From a virus (taxonomy: Duplodnaviria > Heunggongvirae > Uroviricota > Caudoviricetes): a stretch of 7,619 bases of DNA. Positions 1-3,000 of the stretch are shown in pieces (position 1 is the stretch's first letter; every line of letters begins with the position of its first letter). Location: the IMG/VR virus record IMGVR_UViG_2713896778_000017; one strand, written 5' to 3'. Made by a program: the position numbers.

Positions 1-3000
1 CCCGCCGATGCGCGGGTTTTTTTGTACCCAGAATCCTGTGAGCTATACGGAAAGTACACAGAAAGGAAGGTGCGACCACAATTAATAACAAAATCTTAAA
101 AATTGCACATGGCACTATTAGTTTTCTAAATATTGTGTATTTTTTGTATTGCAGGATGACCCTGTAACGAAGTTTGCGTAACAGCATTTTGCTCTACGAG
201 TTTGCCAGCCTCCCCCAGTGGCTGGCTTTTTTATGTCTGTAGCGTCAAAGCAGCAATGTCGCTGGGGCGTCGTGCAATTGGCGTTGAGCTGGAGACTGAA
301 CGTTTTGAGCAGACGGTCAGGGAAGTTCAGGATTTAGTCAGTCAGAACGGATGATATTGCAGGATTAGTTACGTACCGTTATTATCCTGCGCCCGGCCCT
401 TTAGCTCAGTGGTGAGAGCGAGCGACTCATAATCGCCAGGTCGCTGGTTCAAATCCAGCAAGGGCCACCATATCACATACCGCCATTAGCTCATCGGGAC
501 AGAGCGCCAGCCTTCGAAGCTGGCTGCGCGGGGTTCGAGTCCTCGATGGCGGTCCATTATCTGCATTATGCGTTGTTAGCTCAGCCGGACAGAGCAATTG
601 CCTTCTGAGCAATCGGTCACTGGTTCGAATCCAGTACAACGCGCCATATTTATTTACCAGGCTCGCTTTTGCGGGCCTTTTTTATATCTGCGCCGGGTCT
701 GGTGCTGATTACTTCAGCCAAAAGGAACACCTGTATATGAAGTGTATATTATTTAAATGGGTACTGTGCCTGTTACTGGGTTTTTCTTCGGTATCCTATT
801 CCCGGGAGTTTACGATAGACTTTTCGACCCAACAAAGTTATGTCTCTTCGTTAAATAGTATACGGACAGAGATATCGACCCCTCTTGAACATATATCTCA
901 GGGGACCACATCGGTGTCTGTTATTAACCACACCCCACCGGGCAGTTATTTTGCTGTGGATATACGAGGGCTTGATGTCTATCAGGCGCGTTTTGACCAT
1001 CTTCGTCTGATTATTGAGCAAAATAATTTATATGTGGCCGGGTTCGTTAATACGGCAACAAATACTTTCTACCGTTTTTCAGATTTTACACATATATCAG
1101 TGCCCGGTGTGACAACGGTTTCCATGACAACGGACAGCAGTTATACCACTCTGCAACGTGTCGCAGCGCTGGAACGTTCCGGAATGCAAATCAGTCGTCA
1201 CTCACTGGTTTCATCATATCTGGCGTTAATGGAGTTCAGTGGTAATACAATGACCAGAGATGCATCCAGAGCAGTTCTGCGTTTTGTCACTGTCACAGCA
1301 GAAGCCTTACGCTTCAGGCAGATACAGAGAGAATTTCGTCAGGCACTGTCTGAAACTGCTCCTGTGTATACGATGACGCCGGGAGACGTGGACCTCACTC
1401 TGAACTGGGGGCGAATCAGCAATGTGCTTCCGGAGTATCGGGGAGAGGATGGTGTCAGAGTGGGGAGAATATCCTTTAATAATATATCAGCGATACTGGG
1501 GACTGTGGCCGTTATACTGAATTGCCATCATCAGGGGGCGCGTTCTGTTCGCGCCGTGAATGAAGAGAGTCAACCAGAATGTCAGATAACTGGCGACAGG
1601 CCCGTTATAAAAATAAACAATACATTATGGGAAAGTAATACAGCTGCAGCGTTTCTGAACAGAAAGTCACAGTTTTTATATACAACGGGTAAATAAAGGA
1701 GTTAAGCATGAAGAAGATGTTTATGGCGGTTTTATTTGCATTAGCTTCTGTTAATGCAATGGCGGCGGATTGTGCTAAAGGTAAAATTGAGTTTTCCAAG
1801 TATAATGAGGATGACACATTTACAGTGAAGGTTGACGGGAAAGAATACTGGACCAGTCGCTGGAATCTGCAACCGTTACTGCAAAGTGCTCAGTTGACAG
1901 GAATGACTGTCACAATCAAATCCAGTACCTGTGAATCAGGCTCCGGATTTGCTGAAGTGCAGTTTAATAATGACTGAGGCATAACCTGATTCGTGGTATG
2001 TGGGTAACAAGTGTAATCTGTGTCACAATTCAGTCAGTTGACAGTTGCCTGTCAGACTGAGCATTTGTTAAAAAAATTTCGCATGGTGAATCCCCCTGTG
2101 TGGAGGGGCGACTGGTGAAAAATCCTTGCTTGTGATTCATTATCGACACGGGTTCGGTGGTACCAAGCCGAACTCACCGGGAGGCACCCGGCACCATGCA
2201 GTATACAGAGATTAGGCATATACCAAGGCCTCTCATAGCAGGGGCCTTTTTACATGTAAAAAAAGCCCGAGTGGGTTCGGGCAATTGCATGAGATACTCG
2301 TTTTAATAATCGAAAGCATTTTAACCAGGATTCATAAGGCTGCGCAACTGCGCGGCCTTTTTCGTATTTCGGGCTGTAGTCTTCCTTCTGCCATTGTCCT
2401 GTAACTTCCGGACTTCAGCCCGCTCCTCATCTGACTCACACATTATCCCGACCGGGAGGATTCATGGCATTTAAACACTATGACGTGGTCAGGGCGGCGT
2501 CGCCGTCAGACCTTGCGGAACGAATAACTCAAAAACTGAAGGAAGGGTGGCAGCCTTATGGTAGTGCGCTGATTTCGACAGCTGGTTATGGTGCGGAGTT
2601 CATCCAGCCAGTTGTGAGTGAGGGGAGCATCTCATCACCAGAGGAGCCAGGCAACCGTCCGACGACCTCAGCGCCTTCTGTTGCGCCAGAATATTACTAT
2701 GTGATCGCGCTTGCTGGTCAGTCCAATGGTATGTCATACGGTGAGGGACTGCCATTACCGGATACATTCGACAGTCCTGATCCACGAATTAAACAGTTAG
2801 CGCGTCGCAGTACGGTGACACCGGGAGGTGCCGCCTGTAAGTATAACGACATCATTCCGGCGGACCATTGTCTGCATGATGTGCAGGACATGAGCCGCCT
2901 TAACCATCCGAAAGCGGACCTGTCAAAGGGGCAGTACGGAACCGTGGGGCAAGGGCTGCATATCGCCAAAAAATTGCTGCCGTTTATACCGGCGAATGCG

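What the first reader, a model, noticed from the sequence alone, without database searches (positions are those of the whole stretch)
1978..2463. Stem-loop-dense stx2B to nanS-p intergenic region with convergent terminators; candidate small RNA locus
In ~480 nt there are at least five hairpins: an imperfect long one at about 2029-2062, tandem hairpins at 2152-2173 and 2177-2191, a plus-oriented terminator at 2225-2251, a minus-oriented hairpin + A7 at 2258-2282 sharing the palindrome acatgt with the previous one, and a strong plus-oriented terminator at 2338-2362. The ~110-nt interval 2252-2362 starts with a stable hairpin and ends in a canonical terminator, the shape of a compact sRNA. An Hfq-binding anti-sRNA (AsxR) has been reported from the stx2B 3' region of an Stx2 prophage; I cannot map it to these coordinates from memory. 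The minus-oriented terminator also implies antisense transcription entering from the nanS-p side.
Basis: partly seen in the sequence, partly recalled or inferred. Interest (0 to 1): 0.55.

Follow-up and report, generated by a model that had tools for sequence, protein, structure and literature searches.

The report
Known sRNA pair downstream of stx2B
The hairpin-rich spacer between the Shiga toxin 2 B-subunit gene and the phage esterase gene is real, but it is the already published pair of convergent phage small RNAs, STnc100/EcOnc27 on the top strand and the anti-sRNA AsxR on the bottom strand, followed by a strong terminator, so the locus itself is ordinary.

Summary
They are not a new locus. 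Rfam places two curated families here:
- STnc100 (RF02076) at 2052-2257 (+), 206.9 bits.
- AsxR (RF02703) at 2312..2260 (-), 88.1 bits, 53/53 identical to the consensus.

The positions match the literature: AsxR "282 bp 3' and antisense to stx2AB" (Tree 2014) and STnc_100 "75 nt downstream of the stx2 operon" (2025). The pair is the published EcOnc27/AsxR "dyad".

Its "5' hairpin" is the complement of the AsxR terminator. AsxR starts at 2312 from its own promoter, not from the nanS-p side.

I add four things:
- A likely STnc100 start at G2081, by homology with PasD2 (172 nt).
- A covariation-supported fold with a corrected P2 register and a pseudoknot (2113-2117 with 2161-2165). I did not see this pseudoknot in the Rfam structure line or in the papers read.
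- The AsxR -35 lies inside the 2336-2359 terminator hairpin.
- The two published HUS-predictive polymorphisms map to T2066 (-15) and the T-run 2077-2079, which are promoter positions.

Verdict: already known, low interest.

The parts
1708..1977 (+). stx2B coding sequence (context; left boundary of the interval)
   Evidence: ORF list. Annotated stx2B at the homologous place in VT2-Sakai.
1978..2022 (+). stx2-specific 3' flank, not part of the conserved sRNA module
   Evidence: Matches to Stx1 phages and non-stx prophages begin at query position 46, which is window 2023.
2029..2061 (+). Imperfect inverted repeat/hairpin that overlaps the STnc100 promoter -35 region and contains TTGACA at 2038-2043
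   Evidence: Folds at -14.5 kcal/mol, z -2.8. The pairing is broken in the L003, L047 and L045 variants while the TTGAC..TTGCC sequence is kept, so there is no covariation support.
2045..2074 (+). Inferred sigma-70 promoter of STnc100/EcOnc27: -35 TTGCCT at 2045-2050, an 18-nt spacer with TG at 2066-2067, and -10 TAAAAA at 2069-2074
   Evidence: It is homologous to the PasD2 promoter, TTGACT-18-TAAAAA-7-G(+1). Most of 46 family members in many genera have TTGAC-16..18-TAnAnT ending about 8 nt before GGUGAAU. TGTTA.AA is kept in all E. coli-type variants.
2081..2257 (+). STnc100 / EcOnc27 / sRNA103 small RNA. The Rfam hit is 2052-2257; the probable primary 5' end is G2081
   Evidence: RF02076 scores 206.9 bits against a gathering score of 47, full length. 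It is published as lying 75 nt downstream of stx2. The EcOnc27 northern probe is the reverse complement of 2195-2229, and the Hfq-CRAC cluster maps to about 2180-2259. The PasD2 5' end is homologous to G2081.
2083..2197 (+). Structured core of STnc100. P1 is 2083-2088 with 2192-2197. P2 is 2091-2096 with 2102-2108, with A2104 bulged. P4 is 2150-2157 with 2168-2175. P5 is 2177-2181 with 2187-2191
   Evidence: On 51 distinct family members, 88.3% of cells are paired against about 44% for slid controls, and 207 cells changed on both sides against 72 +/- 8 in shuffles (0/500). P2 in this register is 100% paired, against 90.2% in the MFE/Rfam register.
2113..2165 (+). Pseudoknot helix: 2113-2117 (UGGUG) pairs with 2161-2165 (UACCA), which lies in the loop of hairpin P4
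   Evidence: Covariation score is 0.502 against at most 0.142 for slid controls and 0.195 +/- 0.022 for shuffles (0/500). In the cognate versus non-cognate test, 0/2000 permutations reach the observed value. PasD2 keeps the pairing as AUGAUC/GAUCAU.
2198..2224 (+). Variable single-stranded 3' tail of STnc100, the probable seed / Hfq region
   Evidence: It occurs as two distinct alleles among E. coli phages. The PasD seed UGUGAG and its RIL-seq chimeras lie in the equivalent tail. It falls within the Hfq-CRAC cluster.
2225..2251 (+). Intrinsic terminator of STnc100, and probably of non-antiterminated stx2AB read-through
   Evidence: Fold of -13.5 kcal/mol followed by a U5 run. It is part of the RF02076 model. 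The stem differs between alleles while the hairpin is kept. The consensus scan did not flag it.
2258..2312 (-). AsxR (EcOnc02) anti-sRNA. TSS is at 2312, the terminator stem is 2282..2265 and the U7 run is 2264..2258
   Evidence: RF02703 scores 88.1 bits against a gathering score of 63, with 53/53 identical to the consensus. It lies 283 nt from the stx2B stop, against the published 282 bp. It is identical to VT2-Sakai apart from the U-run length. The terminator is confirmed.
2318..2347 (-). Inferred AsxR promoter: -10 TAAAAT at 2323..2318 and -35 TTGCGC at 2347..2342, with an 18-nt spacer
   Evidence: Read directly from the sequence. TTGCGC-18-TAAAAT is kept upstream of the EcOnc03/AgvB-type variants. 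The alternative convergent-sRNA allele keeps TTGCGC-18-TATTAT. The consensus scan did not flag it.
2336..2364 (+). Strong plus-strand intrinsic terminator (10-bp stem, T5). Its loop and 3' arm carry the -35 of the AsxR promoter on the other strand
   Evidence: Found by the terminator scan. Folds at -18.3 kcal/mol, z -4.5. The core TGCGCAACTGCGCG is invariant in all 8 aligned variants.
2370..2422 (+). Conserved long hairpin in the nanS-p 5' leader
   Evidence: Present in the consensus structure of 8 variants. One pair is compensatory (A-U to G-C) and several change on one side only; the loop is variable.
2454..2466 (+). nanS-p ribosome-binding site GGGAGGA and its ATG start codon at 2464
   Evidence: ORF list. 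Pfam DUF1737 plus SASA esterase domains. Annotated as a SASA family esterase in homologous records.

Best explanation
The interval is the known convergent sRNA dyad of lambdoid (Stx) prophages. It sits in the late operon between the toxin moron and the esterase/lysis genes.

Plus strand. A constitutive sigma-70 promoter (-35 at 2045-2050, extended -10 at 2066-2074) drives STnc100/EcOnc27/sRNA103 from about G2081. The RNA has three parts:
- a structured, pseudoknotted core (2083-2197);
- a variable single-stranded tail (2198-2224), which by analogy with PasD carries the seed and, together with the terminator, binds Hfq;
- an intrinsic terminator (2225-2251).

Minus strand. A promoter at 2347..2318 drives the 53-54-nt anti-sRNA AsxR (2312..2258). 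According to Tree et al. 2014, its 5' end pairs with the terminator loop of the core sRNA FnrS, destabilises FnrS and thereby de-represses the haem oxygenase gene chuS.

Second terminator. The strong terminator at 2336-2359 stops plus-strand read-through from the stx2 and STnc100 promoters in a lysogen before it reaches nanS-p and the lysis genes. Q-modified polymerase from PR' reads through it during induction.

Basis of each step:
- Shown here: the family identities, the fold and its covariation, the terminators, and the positions.
- Taken from the literature: Hfq binding, the AsxR TSS, and the AsxR-FnrS-chuS mechanism.
- Inferred: both promoters, the STnc100 start at 2081, the seed location, and the insulating role of the second terminator.
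For: Family identity:
- Rfam matches are far above gathering scores on the correct strands, and AsxR is identical to the consensus.
- The positions equal the published ones: 282 bp for AsxR and 75 nt for STnc_100.
- The EcOnc27 northern probe and the CRAC clusters map onto 2180-2259 (+) and about 2264-2312 (-).

Conservation and context:
- The interval is 100% identical to many Stx2a phage records and 98.2% identical to VT2-Sakai.
- The module lies upstream of the esterase gene whether or not stx is present.
- In other genera it lies between Q-type antiterminator genes and lysis genes.

Structure and ends:
- STnc100 helices P1, P2 and P4 and the pseudoknot are supported by compensatory changes; P5 is invariant in this set, because retrieval fixed its sequence, and so is untested.
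- PasD2 is 172 nt by RNA-seq and northern. It begins at the G homologous to 2081 and has a TTGACT-18-TAAAAA promoter.
- The family-wide promoter pattern agrees.
- Hairpins and terminators are stable relative to shuffles.
Against: - Tree 2014 lists EcOnc27 northern bands of ~235/247 nt. These do not fit a 175-nt RNA from 2081. They would need a 5' end near 2011-2024, or cross-hybridising paralogues.
- The Rfam model starts at 2052, which matches neither 5' end.
- Neither promoter was picked up by the consensus scan.
- The STnc100 terminator has only a short U-run and was not flagged by the scan.
- The AsxR 5' end to FnrS duplex (-10.4 kcal/mol) is no better than 20% of shuffles. That interaction therefore rests on the published experiments, not on my computation.
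- There are no expression data for this particular sequence.
Confidence: 0.9

Rival explanations
1. A compact plus-strand sRNA of about 110 nt starts with the hairpin at 2258-2282 and ends at the terminator at 2338-2362.
For: The plus strand of 2252-2365 folds at -35.8 kcal/mol, z -3.1, with a hairpin at each end.
Against: - No plus-strand promoter-like site lies in 2200-2460.
- The start would fall inside the U-tail and spacer of the STnc100 terminator.
- The 5' hairpin is the complement of the AsxR terminator, whose U7 run reads only on the minus strand.
- In four of the nine related loci aligned, the segment from about 2258 to 2340 is replaced by an unrelated sequence that again carries a minus-strand promoter and terminator.
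- Published CRAC and RACE data place the RNA on the minus strand.
Confidence: 0.03
2. There are no independent RNA genes. The hairpins are only cis-acting 3'-UTR elements and stacked terminators of the stx2AB mRNA.
For: - The 2225-2251 and 2336-2359 hairpins are plus-strand terminators downstream of stx2B.
- The 235/247-nt EcOnc27 bands could include 3' fragments of stx2AB transcripts.
Against: - The same module occurs without any stx gene upstream.
- The module has its own conserved promoter.
- Its core shows compensatory evolution over many genera.
- AsxR is on the opposite strand and has a mapped primary 5' end.
Confidence: 0.05
3. The conserved, pseudoknotted STnc100 core is the functional part. 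It acts as a protein- or polymerase-binding structured RNA of the late operon, for example by modulating read-through of the downstream terminators or by recruiting a phage or host factor. It is not merely a scaffold for a base-pairing seed.
For: - The core is far more conserved than the tail, and has a multi-helix junction plus a covarying pseudoknot.
- Its position and orientation between Q and the lysis genes are conserved across genera, with up to four copies per 8 kb.
- Direct targets of EcOnc27 remain unknown: espA lacks complementarity, and the fimZ mechanism is described as unclear.
Against: - The PasD relatives behave as ordinary Hfq-dependent base-pairing sRNAs, with a seed in the tail and many RIL-seq targets.
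- EcOnc27 is Hfq-bound.
- The RNA is followed by its own terminator and accumulates as a discrete species.
- No protein partner or cis effect is known.
Confidence: 0.15
4. The interval encodes small proteins. Candidate ORFs are 2157-2306 (+) of 49 aa, 2219..2052 (-) of 55 aa and 2443..2321 (-) of 40 aa. One Stx1 phage record annotates a 'hypothetical protein ORF40' over the STnc100 homologue.
For: - The ORFs exist.
- AY838795 annotates a CDS over the homologous RNA.
- Ribosome footprints have been reported on some STnc100 copies in EDL933.
Against: - None of the ORFs has a Pfam match.
- VT2-Sakai differs from the window by a 1-nt indel in the A-run inside ORF 2157-2306.
- The variable insert shows indels of arbitrary length.
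- The conservation pattern is that of paired helices, not of codons.
Confidence: 0.02

Closest known systems
AsxR (EcOnc02), Rfam RF02703, the Stx2-phage anti-sRNA of Tree et al. 2014
   Same: - The sequence is identical over all 53 model positions.
- The strand is the same.
- The distance from stx2B is the same.
- The terminator is the same.
- It has the same convergent partner.
   Different: There is no functional difference. The U-run is 7 here against 6 in VT2-Sakai. One base in the promoter discriminator also differs (G2316 here, T in Sakai).
STnc100 (Rfam RF02076) = EcOnc27 (Sakai) = sRNA103 (EDL933/86-24)
   Same: - The covariance-model match is full length at 206.9 bits.
- The position is 75 nt after stx2B.
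- The published northern probe matches 2195-2229 exactly.
   Different: - My evidence puts the primary 5' end at about 2081, not at the Rfam start of 2052.
- It favours a different register for hairpin P2.
- It adds a pseudoknot that is not in the structure line shown by cmscan.
- Relative to Sakai, the window has A instead of G at 2166, which removes one pseudoknot pair.
PasD1/PasD2 of EPEC E2348/69 (Pearl Mizrahi 2021; Zhu, Shabalina and Storz 2026)
   Same: - The 5' end is homologous (GCAUGGUGAAUCC).
- The promoter architecture matches.
- P1, P2, the P4 hairpin and the pseudoknot are shared.
- It lies directly upstream of the SASA esterase gene.
- It has a tail seed followed by a terminator.
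   Different: PasD has a reduced P5 and a different insert, tail and seed. It is not detectable by BLAST from STnc100.
AgvB (RF02702) and EcOnc03, paralogous anti-sRNAs of other O157 prophages
   Same: The 3' scaffold of about 42 nt and the terminator are the same. The promoter TTGCGC-18-TAAAAT is the same. The convergent arrangement with an STnc100 copy is the same.
   Different: The 5' 14-18 nt differ, which gives different targets. The AgvB model scores only 43.9 bits here, below its gathering score of 56.
Lambda PR'-6S RNA-tR' and StxS (a comparison of how it works, not a membership claim)
   Same: A constitutive promoter inside the late region makes a short terminated RNA in lysogens. Antiterminated polymerase reads through to the lysis genes.
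   Different: STnc100 is not the PR' leader in Stx2 phages. PR' and tR' lie about 2 kb upstream, before the tRNAs. There is no sequence or structure similarity. I did not test this further.

Membership tests
AsxR (RF02703) | Covariance-model score at or above the curated gathering score | tested here: met
   88.1 bits against 63, with 53/53 identical, on the minus strand at 2312..2260.
AsxR (RF02703) | Located about 282 bp 3' of stx2AB and antisense to it, convergent with EcOnc27 | tested here: met
   The stx2B stop ends at 1977 and the AsxR 3' end is at 2260, a distance of 283 nt. The STnc100 terminator ends 8-13 nt away on the other strand.
AsxR (RF02703) | Short RNA (51-60 nt) ending in a Rho-independent terminator | tested here: met
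   Stem at 2282..2265 plus a U7 run.
AsxR (RF02703) | 5' variable region complementary to the FnrS terminator loop | tested here: inconclusive
   The 5' region is identical to published AsxR. By inspection, AsxR nt 4-11 (UUAUUAAA) can pair with FnrS UUUGAUGA (8 bp, two of them G-U). However, the RNAduplex energy of -10.4 kcal/mol is matched by 20% of shuffles.
AsxR (RF02703) | Primary transcript from its own promoter | tested here: inconclusive
   TAAAAT lies 5 nt upstream of 2312, and TTGCGC lies 18 nt further upstream. Both are conserved in paralogues but were not flagged by the consensus scan. The TSS comes from RACE in Tree 2014.
AsxR (RF02703) | Hfq binding and anti-sRNA activity (FnrS destabilisation, chuS de-repression) | not testable with these tools
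   Known only from the literature.
STnc100 / EcOnc27 (RF02076) | Covariance-model score at or above the gathering score, full length | tested here: met
   206.9 bits against 47, model positions 1-206.
STnc100 / EcOnc27 (RF02076) | Conserved secondary structure supported by compensatory changes | tested here: met
   88.3% of cells are paired against about 44% for slid controls, and 20 of 32 pairs changed on both sides (0/500 shuffles). The sequences were retrieved by an exact 24-mer, so P5 is untested.
STnc100 / EcOnc27 (RF02076) | Own promoter and intrinsic terminator | tested here: met
   The promoter is homologous to that of PasD2 and follows the family pattern. The terminator hairpin plus U5 run is present. 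The 5' end was not measured here.
STnc100 / EcOnc27 (RF02076) | Prophage late-region context between the Q/late promoter and the lysis genes | tested here: met
STnc100 / EcOnc27 (RF02076) | Transcript size reported for EcOnc27 (~235/247 nt) | tested here: not met
   The predicted 2081 to about 2255 is about 175 nt. That agrees with PasD (172-173 nt) but not with the Tree 2014 table. This concerns the ends of the RNA, not family membership.
STnc100 / EcOnc27 (RF02076) | Hfq-dependent trans-acting regulator | not testable with these tools
   Known only from the literature.
   No plus-strand promoter-like site was found. The interval is mosaic, and its conserved signals read on the minus strand.

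The most novel reading that the evidence does not exclude
Two linked readings remain open.

1. The STnc100/PasD family core is a conserved multi-helix fold with a covarying pseudoknot. In the window this is 2113-2117 pairing with 2161-2165, in the loop of the 2150-2175 hairpin. The pseudoknot is absent from the Rfam structure line and from the RNAalifold models in the papers I read. It implies that the core has a function of its own, such as a stability, Hfq-presentation or protein-binding platform.

2. The two strongest HUS-predictive polymorphisms of O157:H7 are a T<->C SNP at +90 and a T deletion at +103 after stx2B. They are not changes in the mature sRNA. They are promoter mutations: T2066 is -15 of an extended -10 TG, and the T-run at 2077-2079 is the discriminator. 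They would therefore change the dosage of EcOnc27 rather than its pairing. The window carries the HUS-associated allele.
Probability: 0.3. Interest if true: 0.55.

Novelty: already known. Interest (0 to 1): 0.2.

Why it matters
The locus matters biologically because it sits next to the main EHEC virulence genes. AsxR links the Stx2 phage to haem use. K-mers in exactly this spacer were the top predictors of haemolytic uraemic syndrome in a 2025 machine-learning study. All of that is already published, so the first-stage finding adds nothing new.

The useful residue of this check is practical, and has four parts.

- **Annotation gap.** No feature was annotated over the interval in any of the listed GenBank/RefSeq hits, apart from two 'hypothetical protein' CDS entries.
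- **Boundaries and fold.** The Rfam boundary and hairpin register for STnc100 look improvable, and a pseudoknot is supported by covariation.
- **HUS-linked variants.** A 59-mer carrying T2066C plus the T deletion matches 153 complete E. coli genomes exactly. Both changes fall on promoter positions if the 5' end is at 2081, as in PasD2. This turns an association into a simple, testable promoter-strength hypothesis.
- **A published claim in doubt.** The reported 11-nt STnc_100:stxB complementarity uses Rfam positions 5-15, which is window 2056-2066. Under the same 5' end, that stretch would lie outside the RNA.

Tried and rejected
- **RNAduplex on full-length RNAs.** Run on AsxR against FnrS and on STnc100 against stx2B, it gave meaningless structures with giant internal loops. 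Only the 20-nt AsxR 5' end was kept, and it was not better than shuffles.
- **Promoter and terminator scan.** The scan found none of the three elements I infer: the STnc100 promoter, the AsxR promoter and the STnc100 terminator. These rest on homology and manual reading.
- **First regex for hairpin P2.** It failed and was repaired.
- **MAFFT alignment A1.** It is not in perfect register for the pseudoknot and the apical part of P4 (68.8% and 64.1% paired). I did not hand-fit it. I used an alignment-free cognate versus non-cognate test instead.
- **Alternative -10 for STnc100.** I considered AAAAAT at 2072-2077 with -35 CTGTCA at 2049-2054. Homology with PasD2 favours TAAAAA at 2069-2074. The two overlap and cannot be separated computationally.
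- **Upstream start for the 235/247-nt bands.** I looked for a start near 2012-2024. Only weak -10-like hexamers are there (TGTAAT at 2012-2017; TGgTATGTG at 1994-2002) and no -35, so this is unresolved.
- **Hairpin 2029-2061 as a conserved RNA structure.** Rejected, because the pairs are broken in several variants.
- **Weak Rfam hits.** The Leu_leader, snoZ30, NsiR1 and Plastid-ycf2 matches, and the second STnc100 match at 585-689, are all far below gathering scores and were ignored.
- **Unreadable paper.** A 2026 preprint on an sRNA guiding CsrA that mentions PasD could not be opened.
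Full report
**Context.** The window is the late region of a Stx2a-converting lambdoid phage. It contains, in order:
- a terminator at its 5' edge;
- three tRNAs at 395-646;
- stx2A at 737-1696 and stx2B at 1708-1977;
- the 486-nt spacer in question;
- the esterase gene nanS-p from 2464, with Pfam DUF1737 and SASA domains.

The spacer is 100% identical to many Stx2a phage records and to E. 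coli O121 RM8352. It is 98.2% identical to VT2-Sakai. None of the listed hits annotates any feature over it. Elsewhere a hypothetical-protein CDS overlaps it in the Stx1 phage record AY838795 and a pseudogene in E2348/69.

**Observation.**
- Individual z-scores run from -2.1 to -4.5.
- The whole interval has z -3.5 with 0/100 shuffles as stable.
- The terminator scan independently finds 2336-2359 on the plus strand and 2282..2265 on the minus strand.

Two more hairpins were missed: 2091-2108, and the 2370-2422 hairpin in the nanS-p leader.

**What it is.** A scan of all Rfam families settles the identity.
- STnc100 (RF02076) covers 2052-2257 on the plus strand at 206.9 bits (gathering score 47).
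- AsxR (RF02703) covers 2312..2260 on the minus strand at 88.1 bits (gathering score 63), identical to the consensus at all 53 positions.
- The paralogous AgvB model scores below threshold at the same place.

The literature agrees to the nucleotide.
- Tree et al. 2014 place the AsxR (EcOnc02) gene "282 bp 3' and antisense to stx2AB". They describe convergent sRNAs EcOnc02 and EcOnc27 3' of stx2B in Sp5, with the AsxR start mapped by RACE. Here the distance is 283 nt.
- Tree's supplementary table gives an EcOnc27 northern probe that is the exact reverse complement of 2195-2229. It also gives Hfq-CRAC clusters that map to about 2180-2259 (+) and about 2264-2312 (-).

The hairpins at 2152-2173, 2177-2191 and 2225-2251 are therefore helices P4 and P5 and the terminator of one RNA. 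The "minus-oriented hairpin + A7" is the AsxR terminator.

The proposed plus-strand sRNA at 2252-2362 fails on three counts.
- No plus-strand promoter-like site exists in 2200-2460.
- Its 5' hairpin is the complement of the AsxR terminator.
- In four of the nine related phages and prophages aligned, the block from about 2258 to 2340 is replaced by an unrelated sequence that again carries a minus-strand terminator and promoter. That replacement resembles an EPEC RIL-seq sRNA candidate.

Antisense transcription does not need to enter from nanS-p. The sequence TAAAAT (2323..2318) lies 5 nt upstream of the AsxR start, and TTGCGC (2347..2342) lies 18 nt further upstream. The same TTGCGC-18-TAAAAT or TATTAT arrangement is kept in the EcOnc03/AgvB-type variants and in the alternative allele.

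That -35 lies inside the plus-strand terminator hairpin 2336-2359, whose core is invariant in all eight aligned variants. One short element thus serves as a terminator on one strand and part of a promoter on the other. This is an inference from sequence.

**Module structure.**
- Homology with Stx1 phages and non-stx prophages begins at window 2023, so 1978-2022 belongs to the stx2 moron.
- The module sits in front of the SASA esterase gene whether or not stx is present.
- It is a mosaic: a conserved promoter and 5' core, a variable insert (2118-2146), a conserved 3' core, at least two alleles of tail plus terminator, two alleles of the convergent minus-strand sRNA, and then the conserved terminator and nanS-p leader.

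**STnc100 beyond E. coli.** A scan of one genome per species with the 24-mer CTCACCGGGAGGCACCCGGCACCA returned 38 loci. They are almost all Enterobacteriaceae, including Enterobacter, Klebsiella, Raoultella, Citrobacter, Kosakonia, Trabulsiella, Kluyvera and Superficieibacter.
- Up to four copies occur per 8 kb.
- All loci tested score above the Rfam gathering threshold.
- The RNA lies in the same orientation between Q-type antiterminator or DUF968 genes and holin, endolysin or spanin genes.

**Fold of STnc100.** On 51 distinct sequences aligned by MAFFT alone:
- The fold gives 88.3% paired cells against about 44% for slid controls, and 207 doubly changed cells against 72 +/- 8 in shuffles (0/500).
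- P2 is 100% paired with three compensatory pairs in the register 2091-2096 with 2102-2108 and A2104 bulged. In the MFE/Rfam register it is 90.2% paired.
- A pseudoknot between 2113-2117 and the loop of P4 (2161-2165) covaries through more than ten different helix sequences. Its covariation score is 0.502, against at most 0.142 when slid and 0.195 +/- 0.022 when shuffled.
- An alignment-free cognate versus non-cognate test gives 0/2000 permutations reaching the observed value.
- P5 is untested, because retrieval fixed its sequence.

I found no mention of this pseudoknot in the Rfam structure line or in the 2026 Pas sRNA preprint. I cannot exclude that it has been described elsewhere.

**5' end of STnc100.**
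- Most family members have TTGAC-16..18-TAnAnT ending about 8 nt before GGUGAAU.
- PasD1 and PasD2 are the EPEC relatives of STnc100. They are 173 and 172 nt by RNA-seq coverage and northern blot.
- PasD2 begins at the G of GCAUGGUGAAUCC, preceded by TTGACT-18-TAAAAA-7.
- The homologous positions in the window are -35 TTGCCT (2045-2050), TG (2066-2067), -10 TAAAAA (2069-2074) and +1 at G2081. This predicts an RNA of about 175 nt.
- The PasD seed and its RIL-seq chimeras lie in the tail just before the terminator. The variable tail 2198-2224 is therefore the likely seed here.
- Against this, Tree's table lists ~235/247-nt bands for EcOnc27. I could not reconcile these. Only weak -10-like hexamers lie near 1994-2017.

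**Link to disease association.** A 2025 study found that the top HUS-predictive k-mers of O157:H7 lie in this spacer. They are lost through a T<->C SNP at +90 and a T deletion at +103.
- A 59-mer carrying T2066C and one T fewer in 2077-2079 matches 153 complete E. coli genomes at 100%. This fixes the mapping.
- The window carries the HUS-associated allele.
- With +1 at 2081, T2066 is -15 (the T of an extended -10 TG) and the T-run is the discriminator. The variants could therefore act on promoter strength rather than on sRNA pairing.
- This is an inference, and it depends on the unresolved 5' end.
- Under the same assumption, the published 11-nt STnc_100:stxB complementarity (Rfam positions 5-15, which is window 2056-2066) lies outside the RNA.

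**Mechanism.**
- For AsxR I rely on Tree 2014. Its 5' end pairs with the FnrS terminator loop, destabilises FnrS and de-represses chuS. My own duplex calculation is not discriminating.
- For STnc100/EcOnc27, Hfq binding and indirect effects on fimZ and espA are published, but no direct target is.
- I infer that the two successive plus-strand terminators keep the constitutive stx2 and STnc100 promoters from expressing nanS-p and the lysis genes in lysogens, and that Q-modified polymerase reads through them.

**Verdict.** The finding is a correct observation of an already characterised locus. The concrete sRNA model was wrong in strand and boundaries.

Noticed in passing
window 2113-2117 with 2161-2165; alignment A1 columns 33-38 with 104-109: There is a covarying pseudoknot in the STnc100/PasD core. 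The P2 register with a bulged A2104 fits all 51 sequences better than the MFE/Rfam register.
   Followed up: yes
window 2066 and 2077-2079: The published HUS-predictive polymorphisms (+90 T<->C, +103 T deletion) map here. A 59-mer carrying both changes matches 153 E. coli genomes exactly. The positions are -15 and the discriminator of the inferred STnc100 promoter. The window carries the HUS-associated allele.
   Followed up: partly
window 2370-2422: There is a conserved long hairpin in the nanS-p 5' leader. The T-T mismatch becomes T-A in a Stx1 phage and C-G in L003. The loop is variable. Function unknown.
   Followed up: partly
L043, L044, L046, L047 (aligned to window ~2258-2340): In these loci a different convergent minus-strand sRNA replaces AsxR, with terminator CCCGCGTCTCCCAGCGCGGGCTTTTTT. 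It is not in Rfam at the gathering score. It resembles the EPEC RIL-seq candidate E2348C_1409.E2348C_1408.IGR.
   Followed up: partly
L002 2047-2252 and 2530-2739; L038; L011, L013, L019: STnc100-family genes occur as tandem or clustered copies, two to four per 8 kb. In Enterobacter they are interleaved with isrI (RF01392) hits.
   Followed up: partly
window 4326-4397 (-) and 4812-4888 (-): A minus-strand terminator-bearing element lies directly after the nanS-p stop codon. It gives sub-threshold Rfam hits (NsiR1 21.8 bits; Esr41 30.2 bits against a gathering score of 102). PasA, PasC and Esr41-type sRNAs are reported at this position in related prophages.
   Followed up: no
window 3327-3376, 4614-4663, 5432-5481, 5829-5878, 6558-6607: Runs of N separate segments that repeat one another: 4177-4332 with 4664-4819 at 92%, 4413-4613 with 4899-5099 at 91%, and 5085-5384 with 5482-5781 at 97% and 5827-6126 at 63%. 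Downstream of nanS-p the window looks like a scaffold that strings together alternative copies of the same prophage segment. It does not look like a true contiguous sequence.
   Followed up: partly
window 1-25 and 203-232: Two further plus-strand terminator-like hairpins with T-runs lie upstream of the tRNAs: CCCGCcgatGCGGG+T7, and GCCAGCCtcccccagtGGCTGGC+T6. The first may be the late-operon tR' (the 3' end of StxS).
   Followed up: no
window 241-354: A short ORF ends in ...SLGRRAIGVELETERFEQTVREVQDLVSQNG*. It looks like the C-terminal remnant of the DNA methyltransferase gene that precedes the tRNAs intact in L003. It has no Pfam hit at E <= 0.01.
   Followed up: partly
window 395-470: ARAGORN calls this tRNA 'Met (CAT)'. 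The homologous gene is annotated tRNA-Ile in VT2-Sakai and RefSeq (the ileZ type, read as Ile after lysidine modification).
   Followed up: no
window 1891-1900 and 2035-2044: The 10-mer CAGTTGACAG occurs both inside stx2B and in the STnc100 promoter region. The published 11-nt STnc_100:stxB complementarity lies next to these two copies.
   Followed up: no
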